Source: Leucoraja ocellata | Taxonomy: Eukaryota | Direction of reading: 5' to 3' | DNA length: 64,000 nucleotides | NCBI GenBank assembly: GCA_036785375.1 | Contig: JAWMAR010000023.1 | Location: 9,796,001-9,860,000, forward strand | Shown: positions 45,001 to 51,000 of the stretch, piece after piece | Position numbering within the stretch: the first letter of the stretch is position 1 | Layout: each line of letters begins with the position of its first letter | Position numbers: made by a program

Positions 45001-48000
45001 TAACTTTATATTGAAGTTGAGTGCTTGGGAGAGCAAGTTTGCAAAACTAGATTTATAAGTAGCACCAGATATGAGTAGAAAGGCATTTCAGGTGGACATC
45101 TATTTTTGTGTATATAGATAGTGGTGGTATTTATCATGATATGTAATCAGCAGAAGAACATCGATTAGGTAACCAGTCACATCTTCCCATCGTTACCCCT
45201 TTCCACCTTCTGCAGAGATCACTTCCTCCGCAACTCCTTGGTTCACTCTCCCCTTCCCACCCAAACTCTCCCATCGCCAGGTACTTTCCCCTGCAACCAC
45301 AAGAGATGTAACACCTGCCCCTATACCTCCTCCCACACTTTCATCCCAGCAGTCTTTCCAGGCGGGACAGTGATTCACGTGCAGCTCTTCTAACCTTATC
45401 TACTACCAATGTGGCCTCCTGCACCTCGTCAAGACGAAACATAGACCCAGCAACCGTTTTGTCGATCACTTGCCCTTGATTCACTAAAGCCTAAGCGATC
45501 TCCCGGTTGCTAACTATATTTAACTCCTCTTCACATTCCCATACTGACCTTTCTTTCCTGGGCCTCCTCCATTCCCAGAGTGAGGTCACACGGAAACTGG
45601 AGAAACAGCACCTCGTATTCCGCTTGGCTAACTTACAGCATTCTCCAATTTTAGGTAACTACAAGACCCTCCTTCCCTGCCCCGTGCACCACCTGGACTT
45701 GTACCCATTTCTCCCCTCCCCCTTCCTCCTACTTTTCTTTTTCTAGCTTCACAATTTGCAACTCTTCAATTATTTGTGCCTCACACCTTCTATGACCTTT
45801 GTCCACCATCTGCCTATCAATCAAACACACACACACGCTCTCTCTCTCTCTGTCTCTCTCTGTCTCTTGCCAGGTTTTGTCCTGCCCCTCCTCTATTGCA
45901 ACTTCCTCCACCCCCAATCAATCTCAAGAAGGATCCCAACCTGAAACATCACCTGTCCATGTTCTCTAGAGATGCTGTCTGACCTGCTCAGTTACTCCAG
46001 AATGTTATCTTTTTTGGTAAACCAGAATGTGCAGTTCCCTGTAATCCATAGATGTGGTCATAAACTAAAAGTAGTAATTCAAATATGAACTGAGTGTTTC
46101 CAAGCAAATGAATATTGCAATATGCATTCTTAAAACCAGGAGAGTGTAGAACAATTCCTATCTCGGAGTCCTCCAGTTCACCATTGCATGACTGCTTTGT
46201 AAAAATCTTCAGTAATTTCTGGCTGATTGCCATGATACTTAATGCAAAAAGTCAGTTGCTTGTTGGCTTTTATAGTGTTGCAAAATAGTCTTCCAGCTGG
46301 TTTAGGTGTCAGCAGCCTGACGTGATTTGACCTTGCAGCTGCTTTGAGTATAATATAACAGCATGGCTGGCAATTGATGAGTATCTTGGATATCATTCAA
46401 TGAGGTGCAGAGTTGAATTGTATAGAGTAATCAACCCACTTCATTCTGTTTTCACATTTTTATTAATTGCACACACGAGTTTTAGTGATGGATCGATGTA
46501 AATTCATAACCGATAGGTTCGCATATTGTCATGAACCGACGAGAAACCTGTTCATTTGGAATACATCTATTCCAATACAATTAATGTGCAGGAAAGAACT
46601 GCAGATGCTGGTTTAAATCGAAGGTAGACACAAAATGCTGGAGTAACTCAGCGGAACACACAAAATACTGGAGCAACGCAGCTGGATAAATAAATAATAA
46701 AAGTCTGAGGAAGGGTCTCGACCTGAAACGTCGTCCATTCCTTCTCTCCAGAGATGCTGCCTGTCCCACTGAGGTACTCCAGCGTTTTGTGTCTACACCC
46801 AATAAAATCAATGTTAGTTGAGCAGCCATTTGAAAAGCACGTGTAGCCTAGAAAATTCTGATATCAAATGATTTTGCTTCCATTGAGCATATTTTAAATT
46901 GAAATGTCTTCGAAACTGTCCGTAATACTAGTACAAATGTAAGCAGATATATTTGATACATTCTGATTTGTTTTGCATATTCTCAACAAATTAAAATACA
47001 ATTGGCTTTTAGTTTCAATTTTGCGCCTTCTGTCACGTTGAGAAACTTAATTTGCCTTAAAGTTATTTTGAAGTGACATGCCCTCTTCTCCAGTAACACA
47101 ACACACTTCTCGTAGTTGATCCAGAAAGCTTCTTGCATGAACATTCAAGTCAGTAAATCATATTTAAAACATGATTCAATACTTATATATTTTCCTATTA
47201 ATGTTAGATAATGCGTAATCTTACTTTATTTGGTGTTAATAATTACTTAGACTTGTTAATAGCACTGCACAAATTATTCTTCATATTTAGCATCCCATAC
47301 TGTCACACCTGCGGTTTTAAAACAATTAAGCTAAAAGATAGGAGAGAAAATTACGTGAATGGTAGAAATACAGAAATAAAAACATATTGAAAATATTCAC
47401 CAGATCAGGCAGCAATTCTTTGGAGAAGTAATTGAACTGGAATGTTAACTCTGTTACTGTCTCCATAGATGTATTACCTGCATCTGCAGTATTTTTAATT
47501 TTTAAATAAGATATATTCTCTTTCTCCAATAAGTTTGCGGCTTTCATAACAGAAATCAACGTTATAATGGAAGGTAACCCACAAGATTAACCTGAGTGAA
47601 TGATGTTGAATTTGTAAGTTATTTAAGTAAATACGCCACATTTTTGTCCAAATTCACACCTTCACAATTCATTCATCTTCCATGTGCTCCCTCTCGGTCC
47701 CTCCTCTCTGTGTGTAAGTTTAGCACCACAAATTCTGTTATTTTTCAGGAACTGGGCTTTGCGTAAAACGGCATTTATTGACCATCCTAATAAGCGAGTT
47801 CGGTATTCCGACTGCGCATGCCCAGGTCATGGGTCACTCGCGATAAACATTCTCGGCTGCTGTGCATACCTGCGTTTCGTCCGTGGTAGGGATCGGGCCC
47901 GGGTCTCTGGTGTTGCATGCGCTGTTGAGTTACTGCTGGGCCATCCCCGTCCCCTCCCGGGTGTCCCGTCCCTATCCGGGGGTGGCCGGGGATGTCCCTG

Positions 48001-51000
48001 GGCTGGCGGGGTGGCACAGAGGGGAAGCGTTCTTCTCCGGCTCGGCTCTGCCTGTTCTGCCGGGTTGACTGGCGGCCCTAGTCTAGCGGGGCGCCGCTCC
48101 TTTGCAGTGGCGGCCCGAGTTTACAGCCGGCGTGGAGGAGATGTGCTAGCTCAACTGCTCCAGGCCAGTGTCCCGTCAGTCCGGGGCTGTCGGTTAACCC
48201 GGCAGGATGGACGGAGTTGGGCTGGATTTGGCGCTTCTACTCCCCGCTGGCTGAGGGCCTGGGCTGCCACTGTGGGAGGCCGGTGTCCCATCGGTCCAGG
48301 GTCGGCCCAGGCGTCTCTGGCCGCCCCCGGCCGGGGATGGGGTGCTCGGGGAGGGGCGGTCAAGTGGCGGTTCGGCGGCGCCGGAGGCCCAGGTAGATCC
48401 TGGCTGCGGTGGGGCGCAGGTGTGTGTGTGTGTGCATATGGTTGCCGGGGGTGTTTATCGCGAGTGACTTTTGACAAATCCCATGATTCCTTGCACTTTT
48501 TGGCATACCAAACTTGTTTATTGCCCTTGAAAAAGTAGCGATTAACTGCTTTTATGTCCGGGTATAGATGATCCACAGATAGATTGTGCAGGGAGGTTTA
48601 GTGTTTCGAATTGGCAATGACATATGACTTGCTTTATATTTCCAAGTCAGGATGTGGCATCCCTTGGAGATGAACCTGCTGATGTGGTGTTCCTGTGCAT
48701 TAGCTACTCTTATTTGGTAGCAAAGGTCACAAATTCAAGATGTGATGTTGTTGGAGCCTAGATGATATAATTGTAGCCACTGTATGCAAGTTGTGGAGGG
48801 ACTGAATGTTAGGTTGATGGCCTCTCAATTACGTGGTCATGGATGGTGTCTTGAGAATAGTTGTTGCTGTACTCATCCAGTTGTAAGCAGCTGCTTGTGA
48901 CTTTTAGATAGTAGAAAGGCTTTGGAGGGTACTAATCGGCTCCAGATCTAAACACAGACTTAGCAAGTCATGTTTATTTTCAGGTCGAGCTACAACAAGT
49001 CAACAACAGATGCTATCTCACTGACTCTACCTTTCACTCTGGGTCATCTGGATAATAGGAACACATACATCAGGCTGCTATTCATTGATTACAGCTCGGC
49101 ATTTAAAGCTATCGTCTACTCCAAACTCATGGCCTCTGTATCTCCATTGGCAACTGGATCCTTGACTGCTTCATTGCAGACCACAATCAGGATGATCAGT
49201 AACAAAATCTCCTCGCTGACTATCAGCACAGGTGCATCTCAAGGCTGCCTGCTTAGACCCATGTTCTACTCTCTTCACACCTGTGTCCATGTGGCCAGCA
49301 CAGCTCAATCAATATAATCAATCAATTCACTGATGACAGAGCTGTGCTTAGTCGAATCATGGGTGATGATGAGTCAGTGTACAGGAGAGAGATTGAACAC
49401 CTTGTTGAGTAGTGCTGCAACAATAACCTCTTGTTCAATGTCAACAAGACCAAAAACTAATCGCTGATGCCCGAAGAGGAGGTCAAGAGACCGCGCTCCA
49501 GTTTGCATTGATGGGTCGATGGTGGAGAGAATTAGCAGCTTCAGATTGCTCGGCATTAACGTCTCAAATAACTTGTCCAGGGCACGGCACTAAGATGTAA
49601 TCACCAAGAAAGTATGCCAGCGTCTCTACTTTCTTAGATGTTTAAAAAGATTCCGTACATCTCTGAATACTCTTAACAATCTTCTACAGTTGAACTGTTG
49701 AAAATACCCTGATTAATTGCACAGTAGCCTCTGATGGCAATTCCAACACATGGCAACACAAGAGGCTGCAGCAGGAGGCTGCGGGGAGTAGCGGACTCAT
49801 CCCGGCCAATCACGTTCACAGCCCAACAAGTGTGTGTGTGTGCATGGGATTTGTCAAAACCGTTCGCATCTAGAAGGTGGCATCTATTATCAAGGAACAG
49901 CACCCACAGGGACAAACCTAAACTGGACACAGATGACCAATTGTAACTTGATAGTGTGGTTGGTCATGTCTTGCATCATTTTGCCAATGATTAGACAATA
50001 GTTGCTCTTATTGTTTTTTTTCTACATTTTGTGGACAGGACATAACTGAGCAAATTTCTGCATTGTTGGGTAAATGTCAATTTTGTGACTACTGGGTCAA
50101 CTTGACATGGGCACGGCCTAATCTGCAGTGCTGGTCTTTAGTCCTATAGCTGGGATTTTATTTGGTCCCATAGCGTTTGCTCTATATGATACTTGCATTT
50201 ATTTCTTCATTTCAAGTGGTGTAAATCAATCTACCTTGAGAGCAGCTTCTGTGATGGTGGCAAACTGGGAGGAACAGAGATTATCTATTCAAGATGTGGC
50301 TGAACATGTTGCAAACTACTACTTTAGGTCTCGCATGTTGGGTTCTGCCATAGTTGAAAAAGGGAACTTTCTTGGAGCCGCCTCTTTCTGTTAGCTGTTT
50401 AATCGTTTACCATTACTCATGACAAGATGCCATCAGACTGCAGAGGTTTAATTTGATCCTCTGTGTTTTCCATGGTGCTTTAATTGGTCAGCACACAAGT
50501 ATTATTTTACTCACACCTTTTTATATAATCTCCCTTCTTATTAACAACTAGTTTTCTTTTTTGAAAGAACGGATTCACACAGTATCACACAGGTGGTTGA
50601 GGCCAGTTCATTGGCTATATTTAAGAGGGAGTTAGATGTGGCCCTTGTGGCTAAAGGGATCAAGGGGTATGGAGAGAAGGCAGGGATGGGATACTGAGTT
50701 GGATGATCAGCCATGATCATATTGAATGGTGGTGCAGGTTTGAAGGGCCGAATGGCCTACTCCTGCACCTATTTTCTATGTTTCTATGTAGTATAACAAC
50801 TTTTGTTGGGAATTTGTTTTATCCATAGTGTGTTTGGGACAGGTGCTTCACTGGCCTTCCAGTATTGTCATGTTTATCCAACTTCAATCTGTCATCACCA
50901 AGTCTATCTATTTATATCTATTGTGTGGGGAAAAAACTGCAGATGCTGGTTTAAATCTAAGGTAGACACAAAATGTTGGAGTAACCCAGCAGGACAGGCA

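What the first reader, a model, noticed from the sequence alone, without database searches (positions are those of the whole stretch)
47826..48475. ~650-nt G-U-rich giant RNA hairpin in SPEN intron 3 that pairs only on the sense strand
Seen: the segment pairs with itself in nested order. 47833-47857 with 48444-48468 (25/25; a perfect 17-bp core plus 3 G-U); 47947-47973 with 48333-48359 (26/27; 8 G-U); 47976-47994 with 48312-48330 (19/19; 4 G-U); 47997-48007 with 48301-48311 (11/11; 2 G-U); 48036-48079 with 48183-48226 (43/44; 13 G-U). Further stems lie between these, with a side hairpin near 48258-48299. In these five stems I count 30 G-U pairs against 2 A-C mismatches. Inference: neutral transition decay of a DNA palindrome would give roughly equal G-U and A-C, so this asymmetry suggests selection on an RNA fold in the SPEN pre-mRNA. 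A DNA-level inverted-repeat search would largely miss it. It is single-copy in the window and A-poor. Established: SPEN RRM2-4 bind structured RNAs (Xist A-repeat, SRA) and recruit NCoR/SMRT-HDAC3. Hypotheses: a cis-acting autoregulatory RNA that recruits SPEN to its own locus, or a Drosha/Dicer/ADAR substrate controlling SPEN dosage.
Basis: partly seen in the sequence, partly recalled or inferred. Interest (0 to 1): 0.92.

Follow-up and report, generated by a model that had tools for sequence, protein, structure and literature searches.

The report
Strand-specific giant hairpin in SPEN intron
A 650-base GC-rich inverted repeat inside an intron of the SPEN gene folds into a long hairpin far better on the gene's own strand than on the opposite one, which hints at, but does not prove, a working RNA structure.

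Summary
The + strand folds to -441.4 kcal/mol (z -15.6), the - strand to -292.8 (z -7.0). A strand-neutral alignment of the element to its own reverse complement gives 48 G.T against 5 A.C oppositions (p 7e-10). The gene is SPEN on the + strand and the element lies in its 30-kb third intron. It is single-copy in the window, matches no Rfam family and no protein.

Three other inverted-repeat elements in the same intron show no such asymmetry, so an intron-wide mutation bias is excluded.

Selection on an RNA fold is the best reading but is not shown. The element is also a CpG-island-like block (GC 0.67, CpG o/e 0.74). The 400 nt downstream share its G+T excess, so a local strand-biased mutation process stays open. 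So does a mobile or foreign element that brought its own structure.

No eukaryotic genome collection was available, so genome copy number, orthologues and covariation are unchecked. The SPEN-autoregulation, Drosha, Dicer and ADAR ideas are untested.

The parts
47826..48475 (+). Core hairpin: a 650-nt GC-rich (0.67), A-poor (10%) inverted repeat that pairs well only on the + (SPEN sense) strand.
47833..47857 (+). Left half of the closing stem. It includes the perfect 17-bp run 47833-47849.
   Evidence: 22 Watson-Crick + 3 G.U; inverted pair I1.
48444..48468 (+). Right half of the closing stem.
47859..48092 (+). Left arm of the rod, with a small 14-nt side hairpin at 47926-47939.
48093..48169 (+). 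Apical branched region with three small hairpins; not part of the two long arms. Its skews are small (GC 0.06, TA 0.14).
48170..48442 (+). Right arm of the rod.
48258..48311 (+). 54-nt side hairpin inserted in the right arm.
   Evidence: (I5).
48420..48434 (+). (GT)7.5 microsatellite inside the right arm.
48333..48356 (+). Four-run G-tract motif (G-quadruplex-type) on the non-template strand. Its pairing partner 47945-47972 is the matching C-run motif.
   Evidence: regular-expression scan.
47789..47825 (+). Diverged, AT-rich outward continuation of the left arm.
   Evidence: outer part of both arms: 24 Watson-Crick, 3 G.U, 2 A.C, 3 transversion-type of 32; 3 of 2000 shuffles reach the score.
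48476..48522 (+). Diverged outward continuation of the right arm. Together with 48469-48475 it holds a 12-nt stretch that the left arm lacks.
48469..48485 (+). 17-mer repeated exactly, in inverted orientation, at 49843-49859 inside a decayed LINE remnant. It abuts the end of the perfect closing stem.

Best explanation
The element is a genome-encoded long hairpin RNA carried in SPEN intron 3.

Origin (inferred). A GC-rich segment of about 300 nt, plus a little of its AT-rich flank, was duplicated in inverted orientation. This most likely happened in place, by fold-back or template switching.

Divergence (counts shown, cause inferred). Since then the two arms have drifted apart almost only by transitions that leave the sense-strand transcript paired (G-C or A-U to G.U). 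Transitions that would give A.C on the sense strand are about ten times rarer. The result is an interrupted double-stranded rod of about 230-270 bp in the pre-mRNA. The DNA itself is no longer a good palindrome, and the antisense strand folds poorly.

Cause (inferred). I read this as purifying selection on pairing in the sense-strand single strand, most simply the intronic RNA.

Function (inferred only). What the double-stranded RNA does is unknown. It could serve as a substrate or binding platform for double-strand RNA-binding proteins, or as a stable structure affecting processing of this 30-kb intron.
For: Shown:
- A strand-specific fold: -441.4 against -292.8 kcal/mol, z -15.6 against -7.0.
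- 48 G.T against 5 A.C in a strand-neutral alignment.
- 61 G.U against 6 A.C-type oppositions on the 230-pair main rod.
- The observed energy difference is about 7.7 sd from a strand-symmetric null.
- The wobble U's are spread evenly over both arms, 37 and 32. That fits a filter on pairing rather than a process tied to one arm.
- The intron at large has skews of only 0.04-0.06.
- Three other inverted-repeat elements in the same intron, transcribed in the same direction, are balanced and fold alike on both strands.
- Positions unpaired in the fold are compositionally even (A 24, C 26, G 27, T 35 of 112). The apical non-palindromic 77 nt have small skews.
- The surviving transversion-type mismatches are mostly the milder ones: U.U 3, G.G 3, G.A 2 of 11, and no C.C.
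- No CpG or deaminase-type neighbour signature marks the wobble positions. Of eight neighbour tests, six have p 0.12-0.93; the two lowest, p 0.04 and 0.05, would not survive correction for eight tests.
- The closing stem is the best-kept part: 32 of 32 paired, 17 of them a perfect run.
- The fold survives in 1.7 kb of context.
- The inverted repeat runs into the ordinary AT-rich flanks, which favours formation in place.

From papers:
- Engineered hairpin transgenes with 18-26% G:U pairs still form and act as hairpin RNA, while their DNA is no longer an inverted repeat (PMC9263138; abstract and passages read). This element has 26% G.U.
- G.U pairs are the accepted cue for the reading strand of a structured RNA (PMC1892782; search listing and start of abstract only).
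Against: - There is no comparative, expression or small-RNA evidence of any kind.
- Pair-breaking changes are not rare. The rod has 11 transversion-type mismatches, 3 bulges, 3 asymmetric loops and 3 inserted side branches. That is roughly the indel-to-substitution ratio expected without constraint (expectation recalled, not computed).
- In the strand-neutral alignment the non-pairing columns also lean to G and T: G.G 14 and T.T 8 against C.C 4 and A.A 2. So the bias is not purely conditional on pairing, and the 'unpaired positions are even' result is partly circular, because the folding program pairs every G and U it can.
- The 400 nt downstream of the palindrome have the same G+T fraction (0.60), which is in the top 2% or so of 400-nt windows.
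- 26% G.U is well above what I recall for working structured RNAs.
- GC 0.67 and CpG o/e 0.74 in an intron with GC 0.39 and CpG o/e 0.32-0.40 fit a young or unmethylated block, not an old structure at mutational equilibrium.
- G+T skew alone gives 40-45 kcal/mol of strand asymmetry per 400 nt elsewhere in the window, the SPEN promoter island included.
Confidence: 0.37

Rival explanations
1. Local strand-biased mutation, with no selection on RNA. The block is an orphan CpG island inside the gene, possibly an internal promoter or an R-loop-prone zone. Its non-template (+) strand is often single-stranded in the germline and takes C-to-T and A-to-G changes far more often than the template strand. 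In a palindrome such changes show up as G.U pairs, and they also convert A.C mismatches back into pairs.
For: - The block meets the usual CpG-island thresholds (thresholds recalled): 650 nt, GC 0.67, CpG o/e 0.74.
- GC skew is +0.16 overall and +0.33 in the outer right arm on the non-template strand.
- A four-run G-tract motif lies at 48333-48356.
- Positive GC skew and G+T of 0.60 continue for about 400 nt downstream of the palindrome.
- Non-pairing G.G and T.T exceed C.C and A.A in the neutral alignment.
- Transversions and indels are not depleted.
- The SPEN promoter island shows the same kind of fold asymmetry, -45 kcal/mol per 400 nt.
- Strand-specific substitution patterns in transcribed regions of vertebrates are documented (PMC2927911; abstract read).
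- Bird and alligator SPEN models start with N-termini other than the canonical one, just before the exon that follows this intron. This hints at an internal start site there; it was not examined in this window.
Against: - A ratio of about 10:1 is needed. The flank's composition would give about 2:1, and P(48 or more of 53) is 3.5e-5 at p = 0.66.
- Wobble U's are as common in the C-rich left arm (37) as in the G-rich right arm (32). An R-loop seeded by G-clusters should favour the right arm and the sequence downstream.
- The apical non-palindromic region inside the element has small skews.
- There is no significant CpG or deaminase-context enrichment at wobble positions.
- The left flank is unskewed (G+T about 0.50).
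- Bases paired in a folded strand should be shielded from single-strand deamination (inference).
Confidence: 0.27
2. The block is a mobile or foreign element, or a copy of a structured RNA. Its own single-stranded stage (RNA or single-stranded DNA) was shaped for pairing before it landed here, and it happens to lie in the sense orientation. The host makes no use of it.
For: - The compositional boundary is abrupt, and CpG content is far above the surrounding intron. That fits a young insertion.
- The terminal inverted repeat is a perfect 17 bp.
- There is no coding capacity.
- The same intron holds another GC-rich, CpG-rich element bounded by 25-nt terminal inverted repeats (42134-42530) and two copies of a 180-nt palindromic element. 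Small inverted-repeat elements have therefore been inserting here.
- The asymmetry also holds with DNA folding parameters: -176.8 against -135.5 kcal/mol.
Against: - No second copy or fragment exists in 64 kb, whereas the LINE family and the palindromic element recur in the window.
- No direct repeat (target-site duplication) flanks either candidate boundary (flanks printed; my reading).
- The inverted repeat continues into ordinary AT-rich flank sequence.
- There is no Rfam family, ribozyme families included, at E up to 10.
- No relative of the open frame exists among 1.84 billion protein representatives. This is weak, since such frames may never have been called.
- The window's other inverted-repeat elements fold alike on both strands.
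Confidence: 0.2
3. One reading: the hairpin recruits SPEN protein to its own transcript as an autoregulatory loop, or it is cut by Drosha or Dicer, or edited by ADAR, to set SPEN dosage.
For: The only support is that a long double-stranded RNA is predicted in the SPEN pre-mRNA. The longest uninterrupted helices are 28 and 27 bp.
Against: - Nothing reaches any microRNA family threshold. The best match is mir-1756 at 29.8 bits against a gathering score of 100.
- Only 37 A-U pairs lie on the 230-pair rod, so it offers few adenosines for editing.
- Neither arm resembles any other part of the window, SPEN exons included, so there is no visible siRNA target here.
- No binding test was possible.
Confidence: 0.05
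4. Chance, low-complexity folding of GC-rich sequence, or an assembly artefact such as a fold-back chimeric read.
For: GC-rich shuffles already fold to -325 kcal/mol. The arms contain short internal repeats and a GT microsatellite.
Against: - z is -15.6 against dinucleotide shuffles.
- Long stems of 25 to 44 bp lie in nested order.
- A fold-back artefact would give near-identical arms with random errors. It would not give about 30% transition divergence oriented to one strand, nor a composition unlike its flanks.
Confidence: 0.02

Closest known systems
Hairpin-RNA (hpRNA) endo-siRNA loci of Drosophila (PMC10317233 and PMC10292708; search listing and abstract starts only)
   Same: A genome-encoded long inverted repeat whose transcript folds on itself into hundreds of base pairs.
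   Different: Those loci derive from, and target, another gene and yield siRNAs. Here no target homology is seen in the window, no small-RNA data exist, the host is a vertebrate, the locus is intronic, and a quarter of the pairs are G.U.
Engineered G:U hairpin-RNA transgenes (PMC9263138; abstract and passages read)
   Same: 18-26% G:U pairs, so the RNA still forms a hairpin while the DNA is no longer a perfect inverted repeat. This element has 26% G.U.
   Different: The transgenes are man-made, all their C-to-T changes sit in one arm, and they were tested in plants. Here the wobble U's are in both arms (37 and 32) and the function is unknown.
MITE or foldback-type inverted-repeat elements, such as the three others in this intron
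   Same: Small, non-coding, bounded by terminal inverted repeats, and compositionally distinct from the intron.
   Different: No target-site duplication, no second copy in the window, palindromic over its whole length, and strongly strand-asymmetric. The window's own examples are symmetric.
Hairpins created by template-switch mutations in introns (PMC10710096; abstract and outline read)
   Same: One replication-linked event makes a perfect inverted copy in a transcribed intron. The exact 17-mer shared with 49843-49859 looks like such a templated patch.
   Different: The hairpins described there are microRNA-sized; this one is ten times longer.
GC-skewed, R-loop-prone CpG islands (53 papers hold all four search terms; listing only)
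   Same: GC 0.67, CpG o/e 0.74, positive GC skew on the non-template strand, and G-runs.
   Different: Such islands are not palindromes. This one lies 39 kb downstream of the SPEN promoter island, and its methylation and R-loop state are unknown.
Expressed, structurally stable inverted duplicates of mammalian genomes (PMC5398296; passages read)
   Same: An inverted duplicate with a stable predicted hairpin inside a transcribed region.
   Different: In the passages I read, that survey defines stability by energy and pair counts and does not report a one-strand G.U excess.

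Membership tests
Any curated RNA family (Rfam 15) | A covariance-model score at or above the family's gathering threshold. | tested here: not met
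   six matches at E up to 10 in 46500-49800. The best is mir-1756 at 29.8 bits against a gathering score of 100; no ribozyme, rRNA or lncRNA family appears.
Animal pri-miRNA | A single stem-loop of about 35 bp that matches a known miRNA family or yields about 22-nt products. | tested here: not met
   The structure is a rod of about 230 pairs, and no miRNA family reaches threshold. Small-RNA products could not be tested.
MITE / foldback DNA transposon | Terminal inverted repeats. | tested here: met
   32-nt arms, 81% complementary; perfect 17 bp.
MITE / foldback DNA transposon | A target-site duplication flanking the ends. | tested here: not met
   Flanks printed and read. No direct repeat lies next to 47826/48475 or 47833/48468.
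MITE / foldback DNA transposon | Multiple dispersed copies. | tested here: inconclusive
   No second copy in the 64-kb window. No genome of the source species could be searched.
Hairpin-RNA (endo-siRNA) locus | A long inverted repeat transcribed as one RNA. | tested here: inconclusive
   It lies within the SPEN transcription unit on the sense strand and is predicted to fold. No transcript data were available.
Hairpin-RNA (endo-siRNA) locus | Arms homologous to a target gene, and siRNAs produced. | tested here: inconclusive
   No similarity elsewhere in the window. Five of the seven frames of 70 aa or more that lie over the element gave nothing in Pfam, and one frame gave nothing among 1.84 billion proteins. 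The other frames and the rest of the genome were not searched. siRNAs cannot be tested here.
CpG island | Length, GC content and CpG observed/expected above the usual thresholds (recalled: 500 nt, 0.55, 0.65). | tested here: met
   650 nt, GC 0.671, CpG o/e 0.74, against 0.40 and 0.32 in the intron on either side.
CpG island | Unmethylated in the germline. | not testable with these tools
   No methylation data.
R-loop-prone GC-skewed region | G over C on the non-template strand, with G-clusters. | tested here: met
   GC skew +0.16 and a four-run G-tract motif at 48333-48356. R-loop formation itself cannot be tested.
Structured RNA under purifying selection | Compensatory changes across species that keep the pairs. 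| not testable with these tools
   The only DNA collections open hold bacteria, archaea, phages, plasmids and E. coli. No orthologue could be fetched.
LINE-derived inverted pair | Arms homologous to a LINE. | tested here: not met
   tblastn with the LINE protein P0122 finds remnants at 4568-5007, 13101-13334, 48979-49918 and 59645-59083, but nothing in 47600-48600 at E up to 10 (one search was the sequence read; the search is). Nucleotide comparison of both arms with four LINE copies gives only the 17-mer.

The most novel reading that the evidence does not exclude
A host-maintained giant intronic hairpin RNA that has been 'wobble-buffered', a natural counterpart of the engineered G:U hairpin design. 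Selection would keep about 250 bp of double-stranded RNA in the SPEN pre-mRNA, while letting the DNA lose its palindrome and so escape cruciform instability or repeat-directed silencing. The RNA would serve a double-strand-RNA pathway or a binding protein that tunes SPEN, a dosage-sensitive RNA-binding repressor.
Probability: 0.2. Interest if true: 0.8.

Novelty: new variant of a known kind. Interest (0 to 1): 0.55.

Why it matters
Long genome-encoded hairpin RNAs are well known in flies and plants but poorly documented in vertebrates. If pairing in this one is kept by selection, it would be a vertebrate example sitting inside a gene whose protein itself binds structured RNA.

It would also show that evolution can keep an RNA duplex while dismantling the matching DNA palindrome through G.U pairs. 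Plant engineers adopted the same design on purpose (PMC9263138).

If the pattern instead comes from local strand-biased mutation, the locus is a clean natural readout of that bias. In a palindrome each transition records which strand it hit. That would make an orphan CpG island's mutational asymmetry directly measurable.

Either way, the ratio of G.U to A.C between palindrome arms is a simple genome-wide screen worth running.

Tried and rejected
- Rfam, permissive search on 46500-49800: only sub-threshold noise.
- Coding capacity. The 303-aa open frame through the element exists because A-poor DNA has few stop codons. It has no Pfam hit and no hit among 1.84 billion representatives.
- Relation to the GC-rich inverted-repeat element at 42134-42530. 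Local alignment scores (38 and 41) lie below the shuffle mean of 44. Rejected.
- Arms as two LINE tails. The idea came from the shared 17-mer and from protein motifs I recalled. tblastn with P0122, tblastn with peptides of the local LINE remnant and nucleotide alignments, some transition-tolerant, gave nothing beyond the 17-mer. One transition-tolerant score (left arm against the 4.8-kb copy, 42 against a shuffle maximum of 38) was not followed up. Rejected as shown.
- Retro-copy or processed-transcript origin. No poly-A or A-rich tail lies at either end. The 21-nt direct match 47729-47749 / 48964-48984 is 76% identical and T-rich, so I took it as chance.
- Deaminase or methyl-CpG signature. 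Neighbours of wobble U and G against those of paired C, G, A and U: six of the eight tests give p 0.12-0.93. Two are borderline (5' neighbour of G in G.U against G-C pairs, p 0.05; 3' neighbour of G in G.U against A in A-U pairs, p 0.04). With eight tests I do not read these as a signature. U followed by G is 32 of 69, against C followed by G 48 of 157; this is suggestive only.
- An unrestricted local alignment of the flanks alone did not beat shuffles (26 against a mean of 25.3). The collinear test did: 3 of 2000 shuffles reach the score.
- In one search I also scored the mirrored + structure on the - strand (-365). That number is meaningless, because the energy routine does not penalise non-standard pairs properly, and it is not used.
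- No binding prediction, structure prediction or atlas search was run; none bears on a non-coding element.

Full report
**What is there**

Window 47826-48475 is a 650-nt block with GC 0.67 and only 10% A (A 67, C 183, G 253, T 147). It sits in an intron of GC 0.39. The window has no N.

They hold 30 G.U pairs and 2 A.C mismatches, and include a perfect 17-bp run at the base.

Folded as RNA, the + strand reaches -441.4 kcal/mol (20 dinucleotide shuffles: mean -325.0, z -15.6). The - strand reaches only -292.8 (z -7.0). The fold has 269 pairs, of which 69 are G.U; the - strand fold has 206 pairs with 7 G.U.

The main rod has 230 pairs: 132 G-C, 37 A-U and 61 G.U. It is interrupted by 6 A.C-type and 11 transversion-type single oppositions, 3 bulges, 3 asymmetric loops and three small inserted side hairpins. 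It ends in a branched tip at 48093-48169. All 269 of 269 pairs persist when 47300-49000 is folded as one piece.

With DNA parameters the asymmetry remains: -176.8 against -135.5 kcal/mol.

**Is it more than chance or folding bias?**

An alignment of the element with its own reverse complement, scoring all mismatches alike, gives 197 Watson-Crick, 48 G.T, 5 A.C and 48 transversion-type oppositions (298 aligned pairs; p 7e-10).

In a simulation, the 69 wobble pairs were reset and re-broken by strand-symmetric transitions. This gives a +/- energy difference of +9.7 (sd 20.6, 40 replicates) against -148.6 observed.

In a scan of the whole window (319 windows of 400 nt), the element is both the most stable and the most + favoured, at -71 against a mean of -5.6 (sd 17). 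Other G+T-skewed windows, the SPEN promoter island included, reach -40 to -45. Strand asymmetry of folding is therefore a general result of G+T skew. What is special here is its combination with a true nested inverted repeat.

**Context**

The open frame at 62181-63998 is the start of the large SPEN (Msx2-interacting protein) exon. Its best matches are 61% identical (an unnamed record) and 60% (alligator); mammals reach 50-55%. I therefore do not take the window for human.

I mapped exons by running named public SPEN proteins against the window. On the + strand they lie at:
- 8675-8758
- 18639-18968
- 21227-21592
- 51896-52021
- 53402-53602
- 55098-55352
- 56552-56764
- 58429-58548
- 60462-60581
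- 61099-61239
- from about 62154 onward

Each exon was handled on its own.

The source species is not established. A LINE fragment's best named relative is from the catshark Scyliorhinus torazame (61% over 48% of the query). That is consistent with, but does not prove, a cartilaginous fish.

**Boundaries and neighbours**

The inverted repeat continues outward to about 47789 / 48522 in a diverged, AT-rich form: 24 Watson-Crick, 3 G.U, 2 A.C and 3 transversion-type of 32 aligned. In the collinear test, 3 of 2000 shuffles reach the score.

The right arm carries 12 nt that the left arm lacks. These lie inside a 17-mer (48469-48485) that recurs exactly, inverted, at 49843-49859. That second site is inside a decayed LINE remnant at 48979-49918.

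Nothing else in the arms resembles that LINE or three other copies of it in the window. The remnant is otherwise badly decayed, so an exact 17-mer looks like a recent templated patch rather than shared ancestry (inference). Template switching is a documented source of intronic hairpins (PMC10710096; abstract read).

No direct repeat flanks the element.

**What it is not**

- It matches no Rfam family. The best match is mir-1756 at 29.8 bits against a threshold of 100.
- The 303-aa open frame through it is a by-product of A-poverty. It has no Pfam match and no relative among 1.84 billion protein representatives.
- It is unrelated to the other GC-rich inverted-repeat element of the intron.
- It is single-copy in the window.

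**Controls inside the same intron**

Three other inverted-repeat elements are transcribed with the same pre-mRNA:
- The 397-nt element at 42134-42530 folds to -196.9 (+) and -196.5 (-) and has 13 G.U against 12 A.C.
- The first of two 180-nt palindromic copies, at 34771-34950, has 4 G.U against 1 A.C.
- The second copy, at 50963-51142, has 2 G.U against 5 A.C. The two copies are 137 of 180 identical, and both have near-equal energies on the two strands.

The intron's own skews are 0.04-0.06. An intron-wide transcription-linked bias therefore cannot explain about 10:1.

**Selection or local mutation bias?**

For a filter on pairing:
- Wobble U's are equally frequent in both arms, 37 and 32.
- Positions left unpaired are compositionally even: A 24, C 26, G 27, T 35.
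- The apical non-palindromic part has small skews.
- The retained mismatches are mainly the mild ones.
- The closing stem is the best-kept part.
- No significant neighbour signature of CpG decay or of a deaminase is seen; two of eight tests are borderline, p 0.04 and 0.05.

Against it:
- Transversion-type mismatches and indels are not scarce.
- In the neutral alignment the non-pairing columns also lean to G and T.
- The 'even' unpaired set is partly circular, since the folding program pairs whatever G and U it can.
- The block is CpG-island-like (o/e 0.74), with positive GC skew and a G-tract motif on the non-template strand.
- The 400 nt downstream share its G+T fraction of 0.60, in the top 2% or so of windows.

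A process that adds C-to-T and A-to-G on the + strand would both create G.U pairs and repair A.C mismatches, so the two models predict much the same sequence. Flank-level skew would give about 2:1, and the observed 48 of 53 has p 3.5e-5 under that ratio. A local bias would therefore have to be much stronger inside the palindrome than beside it.

**Verdict**

My weights are:
- 0.37: pairing of the sense-strand single strand, most simply the intronic RNA, has been preserved by selection after an inverted duplication in place.
- 0.27: local strand-biased mutation in an orphan CpG island.
- 0.20: a mobile or foreign element that brought its own single-strand structure.
- 0.02: chance or artefact.

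**What stayed unchecked**

Genome-wide copy number, orthologues, covariation, expression, small RNAs, editing, methylation and R-loops are all unchecked. Supplementary files of papers were closed and were not needed for any claim made here.

**Comparison with known kinds**

It works most like a hairpin-RNA locus, and its pair make-up matches the engineered G:U hairpin design: 18-26% G:U there, 26% here (PMC9263138). It cannot be filed as a member of any family. The transposon criteria of target-site duplication and multiple copies are not met in the window. The RNA-family criteria are not met. The defining tests for a selected structure or for an siRNA locus cannot be run here.

Noticed in passing
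window 42134-42530: A 397-nt GC-rich, CpG-rich element bounded by 25-nt terminal inverted repeats (96% complementary; a second 23-nt pair lies just inside). Its interior is not palindromic and it folds equally on both strands (-196.9 / -196.5). It is probably a small DNA transposon. The ends read CTAAAG...CTTTAG, so a TA target duplication is possible (my reading).
   Followed up: partly
window 34771-34950 and 50963-51142: Two copies (137 of 180 identical) of a 180-nt, almost fully palindromic element. Arm complementarity is 94% and 86%, and both strands fold alike. They were used here as controls for strand symmetry.
   Followed up: partly
window 48979-49918 (+); also 4568-5007 (+), 13101-13334 (+), 59645-59083 (-), 36707-37212 (+): Decayed LINE reverse-transcriptase remnants. 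The first four belong to one family whose best named relative is a catshark protein. The copy just downstream of the hairpin is cut off at its 5' end near 48979.
   Followed up: partly
window 48469-48485 and 49843-49859: An exact 17-mer in inverted orientation, next to a shared (GT)n-GCAT stretch (48422-48437 / 49830-49845). It covers the 12 nt that the hairpin's right arm has and the left arm lacks, so it looks like a templated insertion copied from 1.37 kb downstream.
   Followed up: partly
window 48476-48900: A non-palindromic flank with G+T of 0.60 and GC skew of 0.19-0.31, in the top 2% or so of 400-nt windows and directly downstream of the hairpin. The cause is unknown: a regional mutation bias, part of the same inserted unit, or chance.
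   Followed up: partly
window 45100-46000: A stretch of about 900 nt with strong negative GC skew (-0.34 to -0.63), C-rich on +, that folds 40-53 kcal/mol better on the - strand per 400 nt. It was not identified.
   Followed up: no
window 7600-8700: The SPEN promoter CpG island (GC 0.65, CpG o/e 1.10), just upstream of the first coding exon at 8675-8758. It also folds better on + (-45 kcal/mol per 400 nt).
   Followed up: no
P0003 and P0006 (alligator and chicken SPEN models), relative to window 51896: These predicted proteins begin with short N-termini that differ from the canonical one, and they join directly to the exon that follows this intron. This hints at an internal start site in the orthologous intron of sauropsids. 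Whether the hairpin's CpG island plays that part here was not tested.
   Followed up: no
window 47946-47983: A tandem 19-nt duplication in the left arm (79% identical). Its complementary counterpart is in the right arm, so the tandem duplication predates the inverted duplication. An 18-nt motif (family D1, reference copy 47997-48014) recurs four times in the element.
   Followed up: partly
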